DNA from: Patescibacteria group bacterium
GTDB taxonomy: Bacteria > Patescibacteriota > UBA1384 > XYA2-FULL-43-10 > 1-14-0-10-43-13
Assembly (NCBI GenBank): GCA_038078835.1
Contig: JBBTQI010000004.1
Coordinates: 3,352 to 67,351, forward strand
DNA: 64,000 nt
Direction: 5' to 3'
The position numbers and the translations under genes were made by a program. Numbering within the stretch: the first letter of the stretch is position 1; every line of letters starts with the position of its first letter. Below are positions 2,059 through 60,456 of this stretch, piece after piece. Below the pieces are notes generated by a model. It was not told the origin of the DNA. It did no database searches and saw only the letters and a list, made by a program, of their open reading frames with translations.

Positions 2059-2559
2059 ATGGCAGAGACAAAGGAGAAAAACAAGACTAAGCCGATTGGC
2101 AGCCGGCCGGTTTTTTCCTGGGAGTCGCCCGAATATGTTCATTACACTAAAGGTGCAGGCTGGTTTGTTGCGGTAGGCGCGGTTGCATTGGCGATCGCCG
2201 GTTTGCTTTACTGGCAGGGATTGGCCAGCGGTGCCATTGTGGCGGTTGCCGCCGGGGCCGTTTTTATGATAATATCCAAAGTTAAACCTAAACCGCTTCG
2301 TCTGGCTGTCTATCCCGACGGAGTGGTGGTTGGCGACAGGGTTTATCGCTACGGCCAATTTAAGTCTTTTGGTATTATCCGCGGCGAGATTGCCAAAGCC
2401 AAGCTTGATCTGGTGGGGCGATTTTCCGGCGAGGTCGTGCTGCCCCTGAAAAATATTGATCCGGAGCAGATCCGGCTGTATCTCAAGAAGCATTTGCCCG
2501 AGAACGAAGATATTAACGAAGATTTATCCGACATCGTCAATCGTCTGTTTAAGTTTTAA
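2059..2559 (+). CDS. hypothetical membrane protein (two N-terminal TM helices, soluble C-terminal domain)
   Basis: ORF with RBS GGAGGGAGG upstream of ATG; hydrophobic GWFVAVGAVALAIAGLLYW / AIVAVAAGAVFMII. Confidence 0.55.
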   Translation: MAETKEKNKTKPIGSRPVFSWESPEYVHYTKGAGWFVAVGAVALAIAGLLYWQGLASGAIVAVAAGAVFMIISKVKPKPLRLAVYPDGVVVGDRVYRYGQFKSFGIIRGEIAKAKLDLVGRFSGEVVLPLKNIDPEQIRLYLKKHLPENEDINEDLSDIVNRLFKF

Positions 2560-2566
2560 TATCTAG

Positions 2567-2604
2567 GCCCCTATAGCTCAGTGGATAGACCTGCCTGTCA
2601 TAAT
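2567..2604 (+). other. tRNA-like 5' fragment (acceptor + D-arm-like: GGCCCCTATAGCTCAGTGGATAGA...) directly abutting the next tRNA; probable tRNA remnant or partial duplication
   Basis: Sequence matches the D-arm of the downstream tRNA (TAGCTCAATGGATAGAGC) but cannot be folded into a complete cloverleaf. Confidence 0.3.
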
Positions 2605-2680
2605 GCCCTGGTAGCTCAATGGATAGAGCATCGGCTTGCGGAGCCGGAGGTTGGCCGTTCGAATCGGCCCCAGGGTACCA
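2605..2680 (+). tRNA. tRNA-Arg (anticodon read as GCG; Arg-like D-loop with A20, C35), encoded CCA; G1-U72 wobble at the acceptor end
   Basis: GCCCTGGTAGCTCAATGGATAGAGCATCGGCTTGCGGAGCCGGAGGTTGGCCGTTCGAATCGGCCCCAGGGTACCA folds as a cloverleaf (7/4/5/5 bp stems, T-loop TTCGAAT). Confidence 0.6.
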
Positions 2681-2711
2681 TCAATTCTATGTTACTTTAA
2701 GGAACGTCTTT

Positions 2712-3980
2712 ATGGTCGAAAAAGAGATACTGGATAACGGTTTACGTGTTATACTTATTCCAAATCAAGCCACTAATGTCCTCTCGGCTATGGTGATGTT
2801 TGGGGTGGGCAGCCGCTATGAATCGGATGAGCTGGCGGGAATCTCTCATATTCTTGAGCATATGAGTTACAAGGGAACTTCGAGGCGGCCGACACCGATC
2901 GAGGTGGCCGAAGCAATCGAGTCTGTCGGCGGGGAGCATAACGCCTTTACCGGCAAGGAGTACACAGGCTACTATACCAAGGTTGCCCCGAGGCATCTGG
3001 AGACGGCACTTGATTTTCTATCGGACATCTTGCTCAATTCCAACTATCACGAATCGGATTTAGAGCGGGAAAAGGGCGTCATCATCGAAGAGGTGAATAT
3101 GTATGAGGATACGCCCATGGACCTTGTCGGTAATAAATTCGAGGAGGCCCTCTTTGGGGCCAATGCTCTCGGGCGCGATGTTATTGGCACCAAGGAAACT
3201 ATTTCGGCTGTTACCCGGGCCGATCTGGTCAGCTATCGACAATCGCATTACACCGGGCCTAACACGACGCTGGTTCTGGCCGGCAACTTCGGTTCTCGCA
3301 CTCCGGCTGATCTGATGAGGCTAATCACCAAGTACTTTGCTTTTGCCGGCAAGACATCAGTCGATCTGTCGCCACTGACCTTTGCAGAGAAGAAGTCCTC
3401 GAAGATTATCACAAAAAAAACGGAGCAGTCGCATCTCGTCCTCGGTTTTTACGGCGCCCCCTTTGCCCACCCCGATCTCTATAAGCTCAAACTTTTGGCT
3501 GTTATTCTGGGCGGCTCAATGAGTTCGCGTATGTTTATCGAAATCAGGGAGAAGCGCGGTTTGGCTTATGCGGTCAGGACAACGGCGAACGGTTATAGTG
3601 ATACGGGAACGATTGAGACCCAGATCGGCGTCCCGCACAATAAGGTGGCCGAGACTATTAAGGCCGTCTTGGCTGAGTACCGCAAGATCAAACAGGAGTC
3701 AGTTGGCGAGGCGGAACTCAAAAAGGCCAAGGAAATCGCTCTAGGGCGAATGCTTATCTCCTTTGAAGATTCGCTAAACCTGGCGATGCATTATGCTACA
3801 GGCGAGACGATTGCCCGAGAGGTCGTGACGCCGGAGGAGTTGGCTCGTCTCTTCGAAAAAATCTCCTCACGTGATATAATGGATACGGCCAAGAAGTATT
3901 TGCGGGATGACCGAATGGCCCTGGCCTATATTGGACCGTCTTTATCTCAAGTCGAGCTAGAACCGATATTTACACTATAA
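2712..3980 (+). CDS. M16-family zinc metallopeptidase (pitrilysin/insulinase-like), HxxEH motif (HILEH); the upstream part of ORF 2619 overlaps the tRNA, so start at 2712
   Basis: Inverted zinc-binding motif HILEHMSYKGT; M16 N- and C-domain-like sequence; ATG 2712 (MVEKEILDNG). Confidence 0.75.
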   Translation: MVEKEILDNGLRVILIPNQATNVLSAMVMFGVGSRYESDELAGISHILEHMSYKGTSRRPTPIEVAEAIESVGGEHNAFTGKEYTGYYTKVAPRHLETALDFLSDILLNSNYHESDLEREKGVIIEEVNMYEDTPMDLVGNKFEEALFGANALGRDVIGTKETISAVTRADLVSYRQSHYTGPNTTLVLAGNFGSRTPADLMRLITKYFAFAGKTSVDLSPLTFAEKKSSKIITKKTEQSHLVLGFYGAPFAHPDLYKLKLLAVILGGSMSSRMFIEIREKRGLAYAVRTTANGYSDTGTIETQIGVPHNKVAETIKAVLAEYRKIKQESVGEAELKKAKEIALGRMLISFEDSLNLAMHYATGETIAREVVTPEELARLFEKISSRDIMDTAKKYLRDDRMALAYIGPSLSQVELEPIFTL

Positions 3981-4605: not shown

Positions 4606-4762
4606 CTGTAGCTAAAACATAGAAAGTCCGAAATCTTAAATCCGAAGGTCGAAACAATAATTGAATGCTCAAAATGCAAACAACAGGTCTTTTTGGAAAT
4701 TTGAGATTTTGGTCATTTGAATTTGTTTAGGGTTTAGAGATTAGATATTCGGATTTTTAATT

Positions 4763-33891: not shown

Positions 33892-35328
33892 ATGGCGAGG
33901 GATTCAGCCAAAAAAGGTCGAGGGGAGGAGCGGGATAGGAGATCTCAATTTTCCGGTGTGCGCATTCCGCCCCAGAATACCGAAACAGAACGGAGCGTTT
34001 TGGGGTCGGTACTGATCGATCCGGAGGCATTAGTGAAGGTTGTTGACATTGTCACCCCCGATGATTTTTATGATGAACGTCATGCTCTCGTTTACGGTGC
34101 TATGCTTCGCCTCTTTGACAAGCGGGTGCCGATTGATCTTGTGACGCTCTCGGAGGCGCTTGAGGCGGAGGGCAAGATTAAAGCTGTCGGCGGCACAACC
34201 CATCTGGTGGAGATAGTTAACACGACGCCATCGGCTTCGAACATTATTCCTTACGCCCAAATTGTCAGGGAAAAGGCGGTCTTGCGCCGGCTGATCTCGG
34301 CCGGGAGCAACATTGCCGAGATGGGCTACGATGAGGAGGGCGAGTTAGCGGAGACGCTGGACAGGGCGGAGCAGTCGCTCTTTGCCGTCTCGCAAAAGTT
34401 TTTGAAGAATAAATTTATTCCGATTCGGGAGATCGTTGGCGAGGCCTTTGATCGCATTGATCGCATTCATCAGGATCGCGACAAGGGGGCATTGCGCGGG
34501 GTATCGAGCGGATTTCGCGATTTGGATAATATGACAGCCGGTTTTCAGAAGTCGGATTTAATTATTTTGGCGGCTCGTCCCTCGATGGGCAAAACCTCCT
34601 TTGCTCTTAATCTGGCGGAGTATGCCTCAATTGAGAACAAGGTTCCCGTCGCCGTTTTCTCACTGGAGATGAGCAAGGAACAGCTGGTTGACCGCTTGCT
34701 CTGCTCCCAGGCCGGTGTTGATTCCTGGAAGTTGCGGACCGGCAATCTGAGCGAGGATGATTTTCATCGCCTGGGACCGGCGATGGGCTACCTTTCGGAG
34801 GCGCCACTCTACATTGACGACTCGCCGGGTTGTAACGTGATGGAGGTGCGGGCCAAGTCTCGCCGGCTTCAGATGGAGCATGGCCTCGGCCTTGTCATTG
34901 TCGATTATCTTCAGTTGATGGAGGGCCGGGCTCGGTCGGGGGATTTTAATCGTGTCCAGGAGATCTCGGAGATCTCGCGCGGGCTCAAGAGTTTGGCCCG
35001 GGAGTTGGAGGTACCGGTGATCGCTCTCTCTCAGCTCTCTCGGGCGGTCGAGCATCGCGATAATAAACGGCCCCAGCTGTCCGATTTGCGGGAATCTGGC
35101 TCGATCGAACAGGACGCCGACCTGGTGATGTTTCTCTACCGCGAGGACTACTACAAGCCGGAGACGGAGAACAAGGGGATCACCGAGGTTCTTCTGCGCA
35201 AACACCGCAACGGCCCGACCGGCGAGGTCAAGGTCTTCTTTACTCCGGCCCAGATGCGCTTTGCTAATCTGGAACTCAACCGCTCCCACACCGGCAACAC
35301 GCCGGTGATGGAGATGAACGTGGGATAG
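33892..35328 (+). CDS. dnaB: replicative DNA helicase DnaB
   Basis: N-terminal DnaB domain (ERSVLGSVLIDPEAL..), Walker A (ARPSMGKTSFAL), H4 motif LSQLSR. Confidence 0.88.
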   Translation: MARDSAKKGRGEERDRRSQFSGVRIPPQNTETERSVLGSVLIDPEALVKVVDIVTPDDFYDERHALVYGAMLRLFDKRVPIDLVTLSEALEAEGKIKAVGGTTHLVEIVNTTPSASNIIPYAQIVREKAVLRRLISAGSNIAEMGYDEEGELAETLDRAEQSLFAVSQKFLKNKFIPIREIVGEAFDRIDRIHQDRDKGALRGVSSGFRDLDNMTAGFQKSDLIILAARPSMGKTSFALNLAEYASIENKVPVAVFSLEMSKEQLVDRLLCSQAGVDSWKLRTGNLSEDDFHRLGPAMGYLSEAPLYIDDSPGCNVMEVRAKSRRLQMEHGLGLVIVDYLQLMEGRARSGDFNRVQEISEISRGLKSLARELEVPVIALSQLSRAVEHRDNKRPQLSDLRESGSIEQDADLVMFLYREDYYKPETENKGITEVLLRKHRNGPTGEVKVFFTPAQMRFANLELNRSHTGNTPVMEMNVG

Positions 35329-35387
35329 GCTTGTTTTCTGGACGCAAGGTGAGATAATAGGAGTGCAATTAGCGCTCCTATTATAGT

Positions 35388-36536
35388 ATGAAAAAATTGG
35401 TTTTAATTGATTCCAATGCCATTATCCATCGGGCATATCATGCCCTGCCGGCAAACCTCTCAAACTCCAAGGGCGAGCCGACCAATGTTACCTATGGTTT
35501 TGCCCTGGCCCTCATTAAAATCCTTGAGGAGATCAAGCCGGATTACATCGCCGCCGCCTTTGATCTGGCTGGCCCGACCTTCCGGCACATTGAATATAAA
35601 GAATATAAGGCCAAGCGGGTCAAAGCCCCTCAGGAGCTCTACGATCAGATTCCCAGAGTCAAGGAGATGCTTTCGGTTTTCGGCGTGCCCATTTATGCTG
35701 TGGCGGGATTCGAGGCTGATGATGTGATTGGAACGATTGTAGAACAGTGTAAGGATGGGGACACAATGGTCTATATCGCTTCAGGTGACCGTGATGTCTA
35801 TCAATTGTTAAATGGTCATGTTAGGGTTTTAATGCTTCATCGTGGCTTTTCGGAAGCGGAGATTTTTGACCACGACCACCTGCGGGAGAAATATAACTTA
35901 GACCCGGAGGACTTTATCGATCTCAAGGCCTTGATGGGCGATGCATCCGATAATATCCCCGGTGTGCCGGGAATTGGACCGAAAACTGCCACGGACTTGA
36001 TACAAAAATTTGATACGTTAGAAAAGCTTTATGTTGCTCTAGATTGTCATTCTGAACCCATTCGACAAGCTCAGGGCAAGCTCCGCGAAGAATCTAGCGG
36101 AGTGTCCGATGCGGTCGCCAAAGGCGACCTAGATCCTTCGGCTACGCCTCAGGATGACAGCGGTAAAAGATTGAGTGACACATATATTAAAGAAACCTCT
36201 AAACGGTTGGGTATCAAGGAAAGAATAGTGCGATTACTATGCCAACACGAAAACCAGGCTTTTCAGTCGAAGATGCTGGCTACTATCCGGCGAGATGTGC
36301 CGATTGAGTTTGATCTGGCCAAGGCCCGCTGGGGGCAGTATGATAAGGACAAAGTCCGCCGATTATTCGAAGAGCTGGAGTTCAAGTCATTGCTGAGAAG
36401 ATTTTCCAAGGATTATGAAGAGGCCGAAGGCCCAAGGCCTGTCCTGAGCGGAGTCGAAGGGCCGAAGGCTGAAGATGAGAAAAAGATCACCGAAGAGCAA
36501 AAGAAAAAAGATGAGCAGTTGAAGTTAGAATTATAA
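35388..36536 (+). CDS. polA: DNA polymerase I 5'-3' exonuclease domain (FEN-like) - first of two polA pieces; ends in a low-complexity tail containing GGCCGAA-type repeats
   Basis: MKKLVLIDSNAIIHRAYHALP....IAAAFD...FRHIEYKEYKAKR.. and LEFKSLLRRF match the PolA N-terminal nuclease. Confidence 0.8.
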   Translation: MKKLVLIDSNAIIHRAYHALPANLSNSKGEPTNVTYGFALALIKILEEIKPDYIAAAFDLAGPTFRHIEYKEYKAKRVKAPQELYDQIPRVKEMLSVFGVPIYAVAGFEADDVIGTIVEQCKDGDTMVYIASGDRDVYQLLNGHVRVLMLHRGFSEAEIFDHDHLREKYNLDPEDFIDLKALMGDASDNIPGVPGIGPKTATDLIQKFDTLEKLYVALDCHSEPIRQAQGKLREESSGVSDAVAKGDLDPSATPQDDSGKRLSDTYIKETSKRLGIKERIVRLLCQHENQAFQSKMLATIRRDVPIEFDLAKARWGQYDKDKVRRLFEELEFKSLLRRFSKDYEEAEGPRPVLSGVEGPKAEDEKKITEEQKKKDEQLKLEL

Positions 36537-36965
36537 CCAAAGTCAAAGATCAAAACGATAGTCTAAAAAGCAAAAAGAAAAGGGCGACCGAATGAGTGAT
36601 CGCCCGATGAGTGCAGCCGCCGCCGAAGGCGGCGACCGGTCGTTCGTGTTCAGGGCCTGAGCCGAGGCTTGCAGAGGATGCTTGTCCGAGCTTCATTGGG
36701 AATTTCGTAAGAACCCAATTATTGCCCGGACAGCTGTAATGTAACAAAATCTGGCAATAATGTCAAATTTTTTCTTCTGCCTTTATCAATTTTGACTTTT
36801 AACTTTTGATAGTTGACCTCATACATATGTGGAGTCATTTGAAGGAAAAGGGTATTGGTTTGACTAAAATAGCATAGCCAAAGAGGCACCGATAAATAAA
36901 TCAAATTGGTTTTATGAATCAATTTCAATATTGACATTGTTAACCATCGTATATACAATGTAAAT

Positions 36966-37256
36966 ATGAAAAAGATGAAGACAATCATTAATATTAAAAC
37001 TGATGCAGAGACAAAGAAAAAGGCTCAGGAACTGGCTAATGAGCTTGGCGTGCCTCTGAGTACTGTTATCAATGTTTATTTGCGCCAGTTTATCCGAACA
37101 CGCGAATTTTCCTTCTCCCTGGCTTATTCGATGAGCCCCAAACTGGAAAAGATTATCGCCGAAGCGGAGAGAGACATAGCTGAAGACAAAAATCTTTCTC
37201 CGACTTTTACTAAAGCTGACGAGGCGATCAACTGGCTAAAGAATGCCAAGGGATGA
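36966..37256 (+). CDS. RelB/DinJ-family (ribbon-helix-helix) type II antitoxin
   Basis: ..INIKTDAETKKKAQELANELGVPLSTVINVYLRQFIRTREFSF.. matches DinJ/RelB; 4 nt overlap with the downstream toxin. Confidence 0.7.
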   Translation: MKKMKTIINIKTDAETKKKAQELANELGVPLSTVINVYLRQFIRTREFSFSLAYSMSPKLEKIIAEAERDIAEDKNLSPTFTKADEAINWLKNAKG

Positions 37257-37513
37257 AAGTTCGTTTTCGTAAAAGTTTTTCCAAAGATTTTGCTTGTCTC
37301 GACTCAAAAATTAGTCACGCTTTTGAAATGCGGCTGAAGGTTTTTTTTCAAAATCCTTATGATGCCAAATTGAGTAATCATCCTCTAAAAGGAAGATGGC
37401 AAGGCTATCGCAGCATTAATATTTCCGGCGACTTTCGGGCGGTTTATAAAGAAATTGATGATGAAACAGTCATTTTTGCGGCCATCGGCAGCCACAGTCA
37501 ACTTTATGGCTAA
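37253..37513 (+). CDS. RelE/ParE-superfamily (YafQ-like) type II toxin
   Basis: ..LKGRWQGYRSINISGDFRAVYKEIDDETVIFAAIGSHSQLYG matches YafQ/RelE. Confidence 0.7.
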   Translation: MKVRFRKSFSKDFACLDSKISHAFEMRLKVFFQNPYDAKLSNHPLKGRWQGYRSINISGDFRAVYKEIDDETVIFAAIGSHSQLYG

Positions 37514-38820
37514 TGGGTTGGTTATCTGTTATGTGGTCACATCTTAAGGAAAAGGGTGTGGTTTTGCCCAAAATAACGGCGGAGGAGATCTCCAAAAAGG
37601 TGGAGCCGGTTTTGCGTGAGATGGAGAGAGTTGGCGTGATGATCGATGCTTCGATTCTTGAGGGGCTAGAAGATAAACTCGAGACTCGGATATCGAAACT
37701 CGAAACTAAAGTACATAGGTTGGCGGGCCGGGAGTTTAACATCAATTCACCGCTGCAGCTGGCAGAGGTGTTGTTTCGAGATCTTCGTTTACCCTCAACC
37801 GATCTCAAACGGACCAAGACGGGCGTCTCCACGGCGGCGGGCGAACTGTTAAAGCTTAAAAGCCGCCATCCGATTATCGAGCCGATCCTGGAGTATCGGG
37901 AATTAGCTAAGCTGGTCTCAACATATTTAAAGCCCCTGCCCCGGATGGTTGATGCCGACTCCCGGATTCACACCACCTACGGCCAGGAGACCTCGACCGG
38001 CCGCATCACCTCGGCCAACCCGAATCTGCAGAACATCCCCATCAAGGGGGAATACGGCCCGGAGATCCGGCGGGCTTTTGTGGCGGCGCCGGGATGCAAG
38101 CTGGTGGCAGGGGATTACTCTCAGATTGAGTTGAGGATTGTGGCTTGCCTGGCCCAGGACAAGACAATGATGGCGGCTTTTGCCGGCGGCGAAGATATTC
38201 ACGCCCAAACTGCCTCGGAGATATTTAATGTGCCGCTAAATAGAGTCACTTCGGATCAGCGCCGGGTAGCCAAGACCGTTAACTTTGGTGTTCTCTATGG
38301 TATGAGCGCTTATGGCCTCGCACAGGCGCTGGGCATCTCGCGCGAACAGGCGGCTGATTATATTAAACGCTACTTTGAGATTCATGAAGGTATTAAAAAG
38401 TATTGCCATGATGTTATTGCCAAGGTCGCTAAGGATAAGTACACTGAGACTCTCTTTGGCTTCCGCCGGTCATTTGAAAACTTTAACCGCTACAATCACA
38501 ATTTGGTTGAGGCGGAGGAGCGGATGGCGATCAATGCGCCGGTTCAGGGGACAGCGGCGGAGATTCTCAAATTGGCGATGGTTGAATTGATCAAGAAACT
38601 GAAGGAAGTCCCTCACCCCAACCCTCTCCCTGCAGACAGGGCGAGGGAGTCTGCAAGGTTGATATTGACGGTGCATGATGAGATCGTTGTCGAGGTGCCG
38701 GCAAGGTCTGCGGAAGAGATGGCAAGACTTGTTAAAGAGACAATGGAGAGCGTGGTAAAATTATGTGTTCCGCTCAAGGCGGAGGTTGGTATCGGTCGGA
38801 ATTGGGCGGAAACTAAATAG
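37513..38820 (+). CDS. polA: DNA polymerase I polymerase (palm/fingers/thumb) domain - second polA piece; start ATG 37513 (overlaps the toxin stop, TAATG) or 37531; contains an in-frame palindromic insert
   Basis: ..DYSQIELRIVA.. (motif A), ..RRVAKTVNFGVLYG.. (motif B), ..VHDEIVVEV.. (motif C). Confidence 0.8.
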   Translation: MGWLSVMWSHLKEKGVVLPKITAEEISKKVEPVLREMERVGVMIDASILEGLEDKLETRISKLETKVHRLAGREFNINSPLQLAEVLFRDLRLPSTDLKRTKTGVSTAAGELLKLKSRHPIIEPILEYRELAKLVSTYLKPLPRMVDADSRIHTTYGQETSTGRITSANPNLQNIPIKGEYGPEIRRAFVAAPGCKLVAGDYSQIELRIVACLAQDKTMMAAFAGGEDIHAQTASEIFNVPLNRVTSDQRRVAKTVNFGVLYGMSAYGLAQALGISREQAADYIKRYFEIHEGIKKYCHDVIAKVAKDKYTETLFGFRRSFENFNRYNHNLVEAEERMAINAPVQGTAAEILKLAMVELIKKLKEVPHPNPLPADRARESARLILTVHDEIVVEVPARSAEEMARLVKETMESVVKLCVPLKAEVGIGRNWAETK

Positions 38821-38880
38821 AGTACTAAGTGTGAAAGTGAATACCGTCCCCTTTCACACTTAGTACTTTCACACTTTCAC
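38821..38880 (+). terminator. 17 bp perfect hairpin (AGTACTAAGTGTGAAAG...CTTTCACACTTAGTACT) followed by TTTCACAC heptamer repeats, immediately after polA
   Basis: Perfect inverted repeat 38821-38837 / 38851-38867; the heptamer TTCACAC also occurs in frame in the methyltransferase gene (11500-11530). Confidence 0.4.
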
Positions 38881-38891
38881 ACTTGTAAACC

Positions 38892-39851
38892 ATGTATTAC
38901 TTATTCTACGGCGAGGATACTTACTCAATACAGGAAAAGGCTTGGGCACTGGCGGCAAAGCTGCGTCAAAATCCCCAAGGTGAGTTTGGTATTGAAAAGA
39001 TTGAGGGCGTTTCTCTGACCCGCGAGATTTTCCTCGGGGCCGTTCTCTCAACCTCGCTTTTTACCGCAAAAAAATTAATCATCATTAAGAGTTTTCTCAG
39101 AGAGAATCCGGATAACGACCTGAAAAAATTTGTGGCGGAGAATCTGGGTCGAATTCCTAAAGAGACTGTTGTTCTTTTTTGGGAGGAGGGAGTTCCCGAC
39201 AAGCGGAGTGCGCTTTGGCGCGCCCTGAACCGGCCTGGACGCACCCAGTATTTCCCGGCTGTAAGCGGCACGGCGCTCAGCCAATGGATTAAAAAAAATG
39301 TCGAGATGCAGGGAGTTAAAATTTCTCCGGCGGCGGTGACAAAACTGGAGGTTTTTGTCGGCGGCGATCTCTGGCGGCTGAATCAGGAGATTCAGAAGAC
39401 GGCAAATTATTGCCGATCGGCCGGCCGGGACAAAATTGAAGTAGAGGATGTTGAGATTCTGGTAGCGGCGGCGGACAATACTACCGTTTTTAACTTAACC
39501 GATGCGGCGGCGGCAAGAGATTTGGCTCGAGCACTCCGGTCAATGTATCAGTTGCTTCGGGCCGGGGAGGATGAGATTAAGATTTTGGCGATGATTGTCT
39601 ATCAATTTCGGAACCTTCTTATTGTCTCTGATTTAGTAGCGGCCGGCTGTCAGCCGGCCGAGATCGCCAAAAAGGCCGGCTTGCACCCCTATGTGGTCCA
39701 AAAAGCTCAAGCCGCGCTTCGCGATTATCGCTCCGGAGATCTGGAGGCGATTTACCGCCGGCTGGAACAGTGCGATATTGATATCAAGAGCGGGGTGGCC
39801 TCGCCGAACCTCCTGCTTGACTTGTTGGTGACAGAGATTTGCGAAAAATGA
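38892..39851 (+). CDS. holA: DNA polymerase III delta subunit (HolA-like clamp-loader subunit)
   Basis: MYYLFYGEDTYSIQEKA... N-terminus and AAA+-like lid organisation typical of delta. Confidence 0.65.
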   Translation: MYYLFYGEDTYSIQEKAWALAAKLRQNPQGEFGIEKIEGVSLTREIFLGAVLSTSLFTAKKLIIIKSFLRENPDNDLKKFVAENLGRIPKETVVLFWEEGVPDKRSALWRALNRPGRTQYFPAVSGTALSQWIKKNVEMQGVKISPAAVTKLEVFVGGDLWRLNQEIQKTANYCRSAGRDKIEVEDVEILVAAADNTTVFNLTDAAAARDLARALRSMYQLLRAGEDEIKILAMIVYQFRNLLIVSDLVAAGCQPAEIAKKAGLHPYVVQKAQAALRDYRSGDLEAIYRRLEQCDIDIKSGVASPNLLLDLLVTEICEK

Positions 39852-59678: not shown

Positions 59679-60248
59679 TCAGGCGGACTTATCTTTTAGC
59701 AACAACATCGCGGCTTTGTGCTTGGGCTCAATTATTTTTTTCGACTTGGCAAAGTGGAGCTGCTGCCACTTGCGTTCCAGTTTCTGCCGGACGGAGTCCC
59801 GGGCTTCGCCTTGGGTTTTACCCTCGTAGACGAGAGCGGCTTTGAATAAACCGGCAAAGTTATCAAAAGCGCTCATGGCATCGGCCTCGGCGATAATCTG
59901 TTCTTCGATGTTTCCCCTCTCGCTCGCTTGCGAGCCGCGGTGGTTTAAGATGCATTTTACAACTTGAGTGATTTTTTCCGGCGGATAATTTAGTTCCTGC
60001 AGTTTTTGCTTGGCAATGCGAGCGCCGCTTAAGTGATGGTTTCCCCGGCCCTCTATAATGGAGCCGATGTCGTGAAGCCAGGCGGCGAGGAGAACGACTT
60101 CCCTGTCCCCACCTAATTCATCAACTAATTTGGCGGCGTATTCCACCACCGGGGCGAAGTGATAAGCAAAGGGCTCGGCGCCGTACTTACTCCCCGGCTT
60201 CTCGCATTCGCTTCGGACAAACTCTTTTATCTCTTCGACAATGTTCAT
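59679..60248 (-). CDS. HD-domain metal-dependent phosphohydrolase
   Basis: ..LLAAWLHDIGSII..GNHHLSGARIA.. (H..HD motif). Confidence 0.7.
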   Translation of the reverse strand: MNIVEEIKEFVRSECEKPGSKYGAEPFAYHFAPVVEYAAKLVDELGGDREVVLLAAWLHDIGSIIEGRGNHHLSGARIAKQKLQELNYPPEKITQVVKCILNHRGSQASERGNIEEQIIAEADAMSAFDNFAGLFKAALVYEGKTQGEARDSVRQKLERKWQQLHFAKSKKIIEPKHKAAMLLLKDKSA

Positions 60249-60366: not shown

Positions 60367-60456
60367 TGGCGGAAGGGGCGAGATTCGAACTCGCGGGCCG
60401 ATTGCTCGGCCACAGTCTTTCCAGGACTGCCAGTTAAACCACTCCTGCACCCTTCC
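60367..60456 (-). tRNA. tRNA-Ser (anticodon GGA), long variable arm, encoded CCA
   Basis: Reverse complement GGAAGGGTGCAGGAGTGGTTTAACTGGCAGTCCTGGAAAGACTGTGGCCGAGCAATCGGCCCGCGAGTTCGAATCTCGCCCCTTCCGCCA folds as a cloverleaf. Confidence 0.78.

What the first reader, a model, noticed from the sequence alone, without database searches (positions are those of the whole stretch)
36537..37575. polA is split into two ORFs by an inserted RelB/DinJ-YafQ/RelE toxin-antitoxin cassette flanked by a recoded duplicate of the polA junction
The 5'-3' exonuclease part of DNA polymerase I (35388..36536) and the polymerase part (37513..38820) are separate ORFs. Between them sit an RHH antitoxin (36966..37256) and a YafQ/RelE-like toxin (37253..37513), and the toxin's stop overlaps the ATG of the polymerase piece (TAATG). 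The first 16 codons of the polymerase piece (MWSHLKEKGVVLPKIT, 37531..) recur as a short dead ORF at 36836..36886 (MWSHLKEKGIGLTKIA*). The two copies are conserved at the protein level but use different synonymous codons (AGT vs TCA for Ser, TTG vs CTT for Leu). That pattern suggests an element carrying its own copy of the target-gene segment, or gene conversion, rather than a simple target-site duplication. The cassette has its own promoter (TTGACA-17-TACAAT at ~36934) embedded in an ACATTGT/ACAATGT palindrome, which is a plausible antitoxin operator. Whether PolA works as two polypeptides, or the split is ancestral in this lineage, is open.
Basis: partly seen in the sequence, partly recalled or inferred. 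Interest (0 to 1): 0.8.

Follow-up and report, generated by a model that had tools for sequence, protein, structure and literature searches.

The report
Toxin-antitoxin cassette beside ancestrally split PolA
A small toxin-antitoxin gene pair sits just in front of the polymerase half of DNA polymerase I in a groundwater Patescibacterium, but it did not split the gene: the two-gene polymerase is shared by all its closest relatives, and the duplicated, "recoded" gene start is most likely a scar of recombination with foreign DNA.

Summary
The sequence features are real, with small corrections. The dead copy is 36827-36877, not 36836-36886. The polymerase most likely starts at 37531, not 37513. The headline interpretation is wrong. 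In all 11 closest genomes (52-67% aa identity) the 5'-3' exonuclease (FEN) and the polymerase are already separate ORFs, cut at the same point. The FEN ends ...KDEQLKL(E)L* and the polymerase begins MWSHLKEKG. None of these genomes carries the TA cassette. More distant relatives are fused. The split is therefore ancestral to the clade.

The RelB/DinJ-YafQ/RelE cassette is a later, low-GC insertion. It is a discrete promoter-to-stop module (36931-37513) that occurs at unrelated sites in other Patescibacteria. Next to tRNA-Ser(GGA) it is three times followed by a diverged partial or degenerate tRNA copy.

The 46-nt, 78%-identical repeat of the polymerase start is significant (z=10.6). It keeps 12 of 16 residues despite 12 substitutions (P~0.002 under random decay), so one copy probably came from another lineage. 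The best reading is an attL/attR-type scar (compare e14/icd and Rac/ttcA) or one-sided homologous recombination; which of the two is unresolved. No recombinase lies within this 64-kb window. The arrangement is in at least 11 contigs, from at least four separate assemblies, so it is not an artefact. Interest is moderate to low.

The parts
35388..36536 (+). Stand-alone 5'-3' exonuclease/flap endonuclease (FEN) half of PolA, 382 aa
   Evidence: PF02739 and PF01367. It matches PolA model positions 1-229 of 889. It is a separate ORF with the same end point in 11 relatives.
36516..36533 (+). C-terminal QLKLEL, the end of the clade-conserved tail K(K/E)D(E/S/Q)QL(K/R)L(E)L*. It fits the beta-clamp-binding motif consensus.
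   Evidence: The tail is conserved in all 12 split FENs and absent from the linkers of fused relatives. The motif consensus QLxLF/QLxLxL comes from PMC4564189. Binding to the clamp is inferred, not tested.
36537..36825 (.). FEN-pol intergenic spacer upstream of the dead copy. It contains a GC-rich structured block.
   Evidence: Relatives have 1-130 nt here when the gap is empty. The fold z-score is -3.7.
36572..36766 (-). Candidate small RNA unit on the minus strand. Promoter-like TTGACA-17-TACATT with TG (36766->36738); hairpin plus T-run terminator (36605-36582).
   Evidence: z=-4.35. No Rfam family matches it. No other copy occurs in the window or in the fetched loci. Side observation; its function is unknown.
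36826..36877 (+). Copy A: dead 16-codon copy of the polymerase start (MWSHLKEKGIGLTKIA*). ATG at 36827, stop at 36875-36877.
36878..36930 (.). 53-nt AT-rich spacer between copy A and the cassette promoter. It is not homologous to the other cassette loci.
   Evidence: Six-cassette alignment; GC 28-34%.
36931..36959 (+). Cassette promoter TTGACA-N12-GTATATACAAT (-35 at 36931-36936, -10 TACAAT at 36954-36959). An imperfect palindrome CATCGTATATACAATG lies at 36945-36960.
   Evidence: The exact motif is present in all but one (L176) of the homologous cassettes checked, but also in front of an unrelated BrnT/BrnA pair and in 3 viral contigs.
36966..37256 (+). RelB/DinJ-family antitoxin, 96 aa (93 aa if the start is 36975, as in homologues)
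37253..37513 (+). YafQ/RelE-family toxin, 86 aa. GC3 is 0.32 against 0.52-0.67 in neighbouring genes.
37514..37530 (.). 17-nt junction between the toxin stop and the polymerase ATG. No terminator.
37530..37575 (+). Copy B: the live polymerase start (MWSHLKEKGVVLPKI...)
   Evidence: It matches the clade consensus KGV.LPKIT.
37531..38820 (+). Stand-alone polymerase half of PolA, 429 aa. It lacks any 3'-5' exonuclease domain.
   Evidence: PF00476 covers residues 48-433 of the 435-aa ORF. It matches PolA model positions 487-889 of 889. Motifs DYSQIELR, RRVAKTVNFG..YG and HDE are read directly in the translation. NCBI annotates the 429-aa form.

Best explanation
The locus reflects two separate events.

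(1) Ancestral split. In this Patescibacteria clade (Berkelbacteria-like) PolA has lost the 3'-5' exonuclease domain and is encoded as two adjacent genes. One is a FEN that ends in a conserved clamp-binding-like tail, ...KDEQLKL(E)L. The other is a ~420-aa polymerase that begins MWSHLKEKG. The enzyme therefore works as two polypeptides in the whole clade, and nothing in this window caused that.

(2) Later insertion. A horizontally acquired, low-GC RelB/DinJ-YafQ/RelE module entered at the 5' boundary of the polymerase gene. The module has sharp borders, from its own -35 box to the toxin stop. The insertion went through recombination with DNA that carried a foreign (xenologous) copy of the first 15-16 polymerase codons.

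Most likely this was an attP x attB type site-specific integration. In that model the element carries a surrogate gene end, and the crossover lies in or near the identical 12-mer AAGGAAAAGGGT. The event left a dead stub (copy A, attL-like) and a reconstituted live start (copy B, attR-like). The recombinase and any other cargo have since been lost or act in trans, and the addictive TA pair is the survivor.

Consequence (inferred). The polymerase gene now lies 17 nt behind the toxin with no terminator between them. It is therefore probably co-transcribed from the strong, presumably antitoxin-autoregulated TA promoter.

Shown: the ancestral split, the secondary and foreign nature of the cassette, the cassette borders, and the significance and coding-constrained divergence of the repeat. 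Inferred: the recombination mechanism, the co-transcription, and clamp binding.
For: Ancestral split:
- All 11 relatives with 52-67% polymerase identity are split at the same point. All but 2 of the loci at <=49% identity are fused (129 fused ORFs in all): about 720-816 aa without a proofreading domain, or about 840-1059 aa.
- FEN tails and polymerase starts are conserved.
- The top 120 homologues are stand-alone proteins of 414-483 aa.
- The PolA model is matched at 1-229 and 487-889 only.
- In relatives the gap holds other small genes: Ham1 (L001), GIY-YIG (L009), DUF559 (L087). None holds a TA cassette.

Cassette is secondary and foreign:
- GC is 28-45% over 36700-37500 against about 50-60% in the flanks. 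GC3 is 0.47 (antitoxin) and 0.32 (toxin) against 0.52-0.67 in neighbours.
- Toxin homologues of 55-73% identity sit at unrelated loci in other Patescibacteria.
- DNA homology among six cassettes begins at the -35 box and ends at the toxin stop.
- One cassette lies directly behind a large serine recombinase gene, with a Replic_Relax gene upstream (L185). Another lies next to IS21 istA/istB (L176).

Repeat is xenologous:
- 46 nt at 78% identity, z=10.6.
- 12 nt differences but 12 of 16 identical residues. P~0.002 if one copy had decayed at random.
- Relatives use both Ser codon classes at this position.
- Only this population carries two copies.

Parallel cases:
- In L169 and L172 a homologous cassette is followed, within 12 nt of the toxin stop, by a diverged (about 75-79%) copy of the 3' half of tRNA-Ser(GGA). 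The copy begins in the anticodon loop and keeps a compensated variable-arm stem. L172 also shows the intact tRNA upstream, whereas L169 shows only the tRNA's 3' part at the contig end.
- In L167 the copy, 14 nt after the toxin stop, is a near-full-length degenerate tRNA-Ser.

Precedents:
- e14 in icd leaves a 163-bp pseudo-icd. Rac integrates at the 5' end of ttcA (PMC6379469).

Polarity:
- All 5 nt differences left of the identical 12-mer are synonymous. All 7 to its right change the residue, and a stop follows. This is what hybrid attL/attR sites would give.
Against: - The regex scan found no clear recombinase; its three weak hits (ORFs of 108, 148 and 1240 aa) were not followed up, and no HMM search was run over all ORFs.
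- Only 4 of 9 distinct cassette loci have significant flanking repeats. The three tRNA-Ser cases could descend from a single event.
- The polarity argument is weak. The chance of that arrangement is about 1/15, and three of the four changed residues lie at positions that also vary among relatives.
- In L167 the copy after the cassette is a near-full-length tRNA-Ser. That fits a Campbell-type or one-sided homologous event better than a classical anticodon-loop att site.
- No relative closer than 68% exists in the collections searched. No empty site could be examined.
- The conserved promoter motif is generic, so autoregulation is only assumed.
Confidence: 0.55

Rival explanations
1. One-sided homologous (homology-facilitated illegitimate) recombination. 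A related donor already carried the TA cassette in its own FEN-pol spacer. Incoming donor DNA recombined homologously inside pol on the right and joined illegitimately after codon 16 of the recipient's pol on the left. Copy A is then the recipient's native start. Copy B, and some length of pol behind it, is donor-derived.
For: - The FEN-pol spacer accepts small genes in relatives.
- The event is topologically a simple double crossover and needs no recombinase.
- It explains the coding-constrained divergence.
- Three of the four residue differences in copy A lie at naturally variable positions.
- L167 shows a near-full-length foreign-type tRNA-Ser behind a homologous cassette.
Against: - None of the 11 relatives has a TA cassette in the spacer. 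Only one contig length (37,969 bp) appears in both the toxin-homologue and polymerase-homologue tables, and on it the cassette lies at a tRNA-Ser locus rather than beside pol.
- GC3 of the first 60 polymerase codons is host-like (0.63-0.67), and no mosaic signal runs along pol.
- Copy A has Thr where every sequenced relative that keeps the MWSHL-type start, and copy B, have Pro.
Confidence: 0.3
2. In-situ duplication (a target-site or tandem duplication made on insertion), followed by neutral decay of the unused copy.
For: Direct repeats flank an insertion. Copy A carries a stop and a Pro->Thr change at a conserved position.
Against: - The chance of keeping at least 12 of 16 residues after 12 random substitutions is about 0.002. 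AGT<->TCA needs three changes through non-Ser intermediates.
- 46 nt is far longer than a transposon target-site duplication.
- There are no terminal inverted repeats and no transposase.
Confidence: 0.07
3. One reading: an intact polA was split by insertion of the TA cassette.
For: The cassette lies between the two halves.
Against: - The same split, without the cassette, is present in all 11 closest genomes. The FEN stop and polymerase start are clade-conserved.
- The 3'-5' exo domain is missing altogether, not displaced.
Confidence: 0.01
4. Assembly artefact: a chimeric join or collapsed repeat created the duplicate.
For: None.
Against: The 1300 nt around the locus are identical on four fetched loci that come from two contigs of separate assemblies. 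Both copies are present on at least 11 contigs from several samples. The copies are only 78% identical, so they cannot be collapsed by an assembler.
Confidence: 0.01

Closest known systems
Type II toxin-antitoxin systems of the DinJ-YafQ / RelBE group
   Same: A small antitoxin gene lies upstream, and its stop overlaps the toxin start (ATGA). The RelB/DinJ and RelE/StbE models are met above their cut-offs. The toxin keeps the HPLxGxWxGYR and C-terminal G(S/T)H..L(F/Y)G features that I recall from E. coli YafQ (own knowledge). A strong promoter with a palindrome at the -10 precedes the pair.
   Different: The score is below NCBI's YafQ subfamily cut-off (54 vs 87.25). There is no terminator, and an essential replication gene starts 17 nt behind the toxin. 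Activity and autoregulation are untested.
Prophage/element integration that restores a protein-gene end: e14 (and phage 21) in icd; Rac at the 5' end of ttcA in E. coli
   Same: The insertion is flanked by direct repeats made of the target gene's end. One repeat is part of the working gene and the other is a truncated pseudo-copy. The two copies differ by substitutions compatible with coding (PMC6379469).
   Different: The insert here is only about 650 nt and holds nothing but a TA pair. No integrase is present, excision has not been shown, and the repeats are more diverged (78%).
Integrase-less, att-flanked elements (CIME-type) and decayed tRNA-gene islands (own knowledge)
   Same: Cargo is bracketed by att-like repeats without a recombinase. 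Homologous cassettes at tRNA-Ser(GGA) are followed by a partial or degenerate tRNA copy; in L169 and L172 it is a 3' half that starts in the anticodon loop.
   Different: The target here is the 5' end of a protein-coding gene. Mobilisation in trans is undemonstrated.
Naturally separate 5'-3' exonuclease and polymerase genes in some bacteria, for example an Aquifex PolA lacking the 5' nuclease domain and the stand-alone FENs ExoIX/YpcP (own knowledge, not checked here)
   Same: FEN and polymerase activities lie on two polypeptides.
   Different: Here the two genes remain adjacent at the old domain boundary. The proofreading-like domain is absent altogether. The FEN has a conserved C-terminal QLKL(E)L tail. 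I found no description of this clade's arrangement in the held literature.

Membership tests
Type II TA, RelB/DinJ antitoxin + RelE/YafQ toxin | Antitoxin matches the RelB/DinJ family model above its curated cut-off | tested here: met
   TIGR02384 scores 46.2 bits against a cut-off of 45.65. PF04221 scores 27.7 against 22.4.
Type II TA, RelB/DinJ antitoxin + RelE/YafQ toxin | Toxin matches the RelE/StbE or YafQ family model above its curated cut-off | tested here: met
   TIGR02385 scores 47.3 against 27.9. PF15738 (YafQ_toxin) scores 45 against 30. NCBI's narrower YafQ subfamily TIGR00053 scores 54 against 87.25 and is not met.
Type II TA, RelB/DinJ antitoxin + RelE/YafQ toxin | Two small co-oriented genes, antitoxin first, with overlapping or abutting stop and start | tested here: met
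   ORFs 36966-37256 and 37253-37513 overlap in ATGA.
Type II TA, RelB/DinJ antitoxin + RelE/YafQ toxin | Autoregulated promoter with an antitoxin operator | tested here: inconclusive
The promoter is strong and conserved, with a palindrome at the -10. The same motif precedes unrelated genes.
Type II TA, RelB/DinJ antitoxin + RelE/YafQ toxin | Toxin is a ribosome-dependent mRNA endonuclease neutralised by the antitoxin | not testable with these tools
   This needs expression and biochemistry.
Canonical DNA polymerase I (PolA) | Single polypeptide carrying the 5'-3' exo, 3'-5' exo(-like) and polymerase domains | tested here: not met
   There are two ORFs. PolA model positions of about 230-486 are unmatched. 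The equivalog cut-offs are not reached: 316 and 528 bits against TIGR00593's 600, and 314 and 542 against NF004397's 720. The same holds in 11 relatives.
Canonical DNA polymerase I (PolA) | Family A polymerase motifs A, B and C intact | tested here: met
   DYSQIELR, RRVAKTVNFGVLYG and VHDE are read in the translation. PF00476 E=5.7e-140.
Site-specific integrative element that restores a gene end (e14/icd type) | Insert flanked by direct repeats consisting of the target gene's end, one of them in the working gene and one a truncated copy | tested here: met
Site-specific integrative element that restores a gene end (e14/icd type) | Recombinase (tyrosine or serine) encoded in the element | tested here: not met
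   The roughly 650-nt insert holds only the TA pair. A motif scan of the 64-kb window found no clear recombinase; its three weak hits were not followed up. A related cassette does lie next to a large serine recombinase elsewhere.
Site-specific integrative element that restores a gene end (e14/icd type) | Excision to a circle and an empty attB | not testable with these tools
   This needs raw reads or experiments. No relative closer than 68% is available.
Transposon / IS insertion | Short identical target-site duplication, terminal inverted repeats, transposase | tested here: not met
   The repeat is 46 nt at 78% identity. No terminal inverted repeats bracket the insert, and there is no transposase.
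Integron gene cassette | attC recombination site downstream of the cassette ORF; promoterless cassette | tested here: not met
   Only 17 nt separate the toxin stop from the polymerase ATG, and the cassette has its own promoter.

The most novel reading that the evidence does not exclude
The promoter-to-stop RelB/YafQ module may be a minimal integrative unit that is mobilised in trans. In this reading it inserts at the ends of essential genes (tRNA-Ser 3' end, polymerase 5' end) and brings a recoded surrogate gene end. Here it would have captured transcription of the polymerase gene, so that an essential replication enzyme is expressed from, and held hostage by, a toxin-antitoxin promoter. This would be a second layer of addiction on top of post-segregational killing.
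Probability: 0.1. Interest if true: 0.7.

Novelty: new member of a known kind. Interest (0 to 1): 0.35.

Why it matters
It corrects an attractive but wrong story. A selfish cassette did not break an essential gene. It settled in a spacer that already existed, because in this clade PolA is naturally encoded as two genes.

Two things remain of some value.

1. The work documents a Patescibacteria clade in which Pol I is a two-gene enzyme without any proofreading-like domain. Its FEN carries a conserved C-terminal QLKL(E)L tail. That gives a testable prediction that the bacterial flap endonuclease is tethered to the sliding clamp, as FEN1 is to PCNA.

2. It gives a clean example of a TA pair as the sole survivor or sole cargo between att-like, xenologous gene-end repeats, with parallel cases at tRNA-Ser. 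This bears on how chromosomal TA modules move, and on why they persist after the elements that carried them decay.

Tried and rejected
- Search for an empty site or close relative. The genome-contig scan gave a best hit of 67%, the metagenome-contig scan 55%, and the 5.8-billion protein search 68%. None is close enough, so the native sequence of the polymerase start could not be read.
- Sliding-window nearest-neighbour analysis along the polymerase, and a GC3 profile, to find a recombination breakpoint. No signal.
- Rfam on the window and, permissively, on 36450-37600. Only four tRNAs elsewhere and a sub-threshold MicX hit (23 vs 75 bits), taken as chance.
- A viral-contig scan with the promoter motif gave 3 hits in front of an unrelated phage gene. 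A second scan with the toxin protein gave none. No intact element carrying the cassette was found.
- Regex scan of all window ORFs of at least 100 aa for tyrosine- and serine-recombinase motifs. Three weak matches (108-, 148- and 1240-aa ORFs), none followed up and none taken as a recombinase.
- The idea that the polymerase site is a secondary site of a tRNA-Ser-specific element (GGAAAAGGGTGT vs GGAAAGCGTGT) was rejected. Both repeat copies are polymerase-like on both sides of the core.
- Integron attC and transposon target-site-duplication models were rejected (see the membership table).
- Two ORFs on the minus strand (36550-36747 and 36719-36988) have no Pfam hit and are treated as spurious.
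- Literature searches for a described split PolA in CPR/Patescibacteria found nothing relevant in the held library.
Full report
**What is in the sequence**

The four ORFs are as described.
- A 382-aa 5'-3' exonuclease (FEN; 35388-36536; PF02739 and PF01367).
- A 96-aa RelB/DinJ-type antitoxin (36966-37256).
- An 86-aa YafQ/RelE-type toxin (37253-37513). Its start overlaps the antitoxin stop in ATGA.
- A family-A polymerase ORF running to 38820.

The promoter TTGACA(36931)-17-TACAAT(36959) matches 11 of 12 positions and is the best match in 35200-39000.

The direct repeat 36826-36871 / 37530-37575 is 46 nt at 78% identity. It is the largest repeat in the region and is far above chance: score 52 against a shuffle maximum of 37, z=10.6.

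Two corrections apply.
- The polymerase almost certainly starts at ATG 37531 (MWSHL...), not at the TAATG at 37513. All relatives start at MWSHL, two of them with a stop codon directly upstream, and NCBI annotates the 429-aa form.

The window comes from a Hainich groundwater Patescibacterium. The same arrangement, with both repeat copies, is on at least 11 contigs, drawn from at least four separate assemblies. It is not an assembly artefact.

**The split is ancestral**

I fetched 80 genome loci and 80 metagenome loci that encode relatives of the polymerase piece. For each I asked whether the FEN and polymerase hits lie in one ORF.
- All 11 relatives with 52-67% polymerase identity are split at the same point (L001-L006, L008-L010, L067, L087).
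- All but two of the loci at <=49% identity are fused. Some are about 840-1059 aa. Others are a short form of about 720-816 aa whose FEN and polymerase hits lie less than 200 nt apart.

Every split FEN ends K(K/E)D(E/S/Q)QL(K/R)L(E)L*. The fused linkers have no such motif. Most split polymerases begin MWSHLKEKG..LPKI or a close variant.

The protein database gives the same picture. The best 120 homologues are stand-alone proteins of 414-483 aa, and none is closer than 68%.

The two pieces match a PolA model at positions 1-229 and 487-889 of 889. The proofreading-like domain is absent rather than displaced.

None of the relatives has the TA cassette between the genes. Their spacers are 1-130 nt, or they hold other small genes: Ham1 in L001, GIY-YIG in L009, and DUF559 plus an unknown ORF in L087.

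The tail QLKL(E)L fits the beta-clamp-binding consensus QLxLF/QLxLxL (PMC4564189). This suggests the free FEN is tethered to the clamp. That step is inference.

**The cassette is a later, foreign, discrete module**
- GC falls to 28-45% over 36700-37500. GC3 is 0.47 for the antitoxin and 0.32 for the toxin, against 0.52-0.67 in neighbouring genes. The first polymerase codons are host-like at 0.63-0.67.
- Seventy-five toxin homologues were found, nearly all from metagenomic Patescibacteria.
- Their contexts differ. Three lie at tRNA-Ser(GGA) loci (L167/L168, L169, L172/L173). The others lie between DUF1653 and an unknown gene (L170), after a DNA_binding_1 gene (L175), next to IS21 istA/istB (L176), and between a T2SSE ATPase and NDK (L177). 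More lie among other TA pairs (L181, L182). One lies directly behind a large serine recombinase gene and an antisense tRNA-Ser(TGA), with a Replic_Relax gene upstream (L185/L186).
- In an alignment of six cassettes, DNA homology starts at the -35 box and ends at the toxin stop codon.
- The motif TTGACA-N12-GTATATACAAT is exact in all but one (L176) of the cassettes checked. It also precedes a BrnT/BrnA pair and an unrelated phage gene. It is therefore a generic strong promoter, not proof of an operator.

**The repeat**

The two copies differ at 12 of 48 nt but share 12 of 16 residues. Ser is AGT in one and TCA in the other; Leu is TTG and CTT. If one copy had simply decayed, at least 12 identical residues would be kept in about 0.2% of simulations.

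Relatives use both Ser codon classes at this position. The simplest reading is that the two copies evolved as working polymerase starts in different lineages, so one of them is xenologous. Only this population has two copies.

A parallel is seen for the homologous cassettes at tRNA-Ser(GGA). In L169 and L172 the toxin stop is followed within 12 nt by a 56-59-nt copy of the tRNA's 3' half. That copy is about 75-79% identical, begins in the anticodon loop, and keeps a variable-arm stem through compensatory changes. In L167, 14 nt after the toxin stop, there is a near-full-length degenerate tRNA-Ser whose D arm resembles this window's own tRNA-Ser(GGA).

Flanking repeats are not universal. They are significant in 4 of 9 distinct cassette loci.

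**Mechanism**

Two models fit, and I cannot separate them.

(a) Att-type integration. The element carries a surrogate gene end, as with e14 in icd (which leaves a 163-bp pseudo-icd) and Rac at the 5' end of ttcA (PMC6379469).
- Copy A would be attL (native left part plus element right part). Copy B would be attR.
- This fits the polarity of the differences. All five changes left of the identical 12-mer AAGGAAAAGGGT are synonymous. All seven to its right change residues, and a stop follows.
- The chance of that arrangement is only about 1/15, and three of the four changed residues lie at positions that vary among relatives.
- No recombinase lies within the insert, and a motif scan of the window found no clear one. 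The cassette would be a relic kept by addiction, or mobilised in trans.

(b) One-sided homologous recombination with a donor that already carried the cassette in its FEN-pol spacer. Copy A would then be the native stub.
- Against this, no such donor is seen among the relatives.
- Only one contig length (37,969 bp) appears in both the toxin and polymerase homologue tables, and on it the cassette lies at a tRNA-Ser locus rather than beside pol.
- No mosaic signal is visible along pol.

Simple target-site or tandem duplication followed by drift is disfavoured. Transposon and integron models fail their defining features.

**Consequence (inferred)**

Seventeen nucleotides separate the toxin stop from the polymerase start, and no terminator lies between them. 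The polymerase is therefore probably transcribed from the TA promoter as well as by read-through from the FEN gene. Whether that matters physiologically is unknown.

**Novelty and verdict**

The TA pair is an ordinary member of the RelB/DinJ-RelE/YafQ group. The flanking scar has known precedents. The headline claim is refuted.

What remains new is modest. It is a TA-only insert between xenologous gene-end repeats at a new target. As context, there is a clade-wide two-gene PolA without a proofreading-like domain and with a clamp-motif tail on its FEN. I found no description of that arrangement in the held literature.

Interest is 0.35. Classification: new member of a known kind.

Noticed in passing
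window 36516-36533 (FEN C-terminus); also the FEN ends in L001-L006, L008-L010, L067, L087: All split FENs end in a conserved K(K/E)D(E/S/Q)QL(K/R)L(E)L* tail. It fits the beta-clamp-binding motif (QLxLF/QLxLxL) and is absent from the linkers of fused PolA relatives. This suggests that the stand-alone bacterial FEN is clamp-tethered, as FEN1 is tethered to PCNA.
   Followed up: partly
window 36572-36766, minus strand: Candidate small RNA of about 160 nt in the FEN-pol spacer. It has a promoter-like TTGACA-17-TACATT with an upstream TG, three strong hairpins (z=-4.35), and a hairpin plus T-run terminator. It has no Rfam family and no other copy in the window or in any fetched locus.
   Followed up: partly
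window ~36043-36168 (inside the FEN gene, residues ~219-261): In-frame GC-rich insertion (DCHSEPIRQAQGKLREESSGVSDAVAKGDLDPSATPQDDSGK) with inverted ends TGTCATTCTGA...TCAGGATGACA. Relatives carry different repeat-like insertions at the same two hypervariable sites of the FEN (for example ...IPAKAGIQALDPLVKPEDD... in L006). These look like palindromic mini-elements tolerated in frame.
   Followed up: partly
window 38608-38661 (polymerase, loop before motif C): A short GC-rich palindromic stretch encodes VPHPNPLPADRARESARL, in a loop whose length and sequence vary among all relatives.
   Followed up: partly
L001 5389-5973; L009 4546-4830; L087 1828-2817: The FEN-pol spacer is an insertion hot spot in this clade. 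It holds a Ham1-family gene (L001), a GIY-YIG gene bracketed by the inverted repeat TTGTCATTGCGAG...CTCGCAATGACAA (L009), and a DUF559 endonuclease-like gene plus an unknown 131-aa ORF (L087).
   Followed up: partly
L167 2840-5363; L169 17-1219; L172 ~2310-3160: tRNA-Ser(GGA) loci in related Patescibacteria carry the homologous TA cassette, followed by a diverged copy of the tRNA (a 3' half in L169 and L172, near full length in L167). L167 also has short tRNA 3'-end copies at 3377-3400 and 4631-4654 and a thrice-repeated 34-nt motif GTYCNAGACCCGAGTGTCCCGCCA. This suggests serial accretion of small islets.
   Followed up: partly
L185/L186 1010-3261: A large serine recombinase ORF has no stop before an antisense tRNA-Ser(TGA) and reads on into the RelB gene of a homologous cassette. 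The same TTGACA-N12-GTATATACAAT promoter also precedes the adjacent BrnT/BrnA pair.
   Followed up: partly
window 38821-38884 (between pol and holA): A perfect 17-nt inverted repeat, AGTACTAAGTGTGAAAG / CTTTCACACTTAGTACT, lies directly after the polymerase stop. Extra CTTTCACACTT copies follow. It could be a terminator or a protein-binding site; this was not examined.
   Followed up: no
window 35354-35384 (upstream of the FEN start): A 13-nt inverted repeat, ATAATAGGAGTGC / GCGCTCCTATTAT, lies immediately before the FEN ATG. It could occlude the ribosome-binding region.
   Followed up: no
window 60367-60456 (minus strand) and 59679-60248: This genome's own tRNA-Ser(GGA) is followed directly by an HD-domain gene, with no TA cassette or partial tRNA copy. 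Its D arm and variable arm resemble the foreign tRNA-Ser copies that follow the cassettes in L167 and L169.
   Followed up: partly
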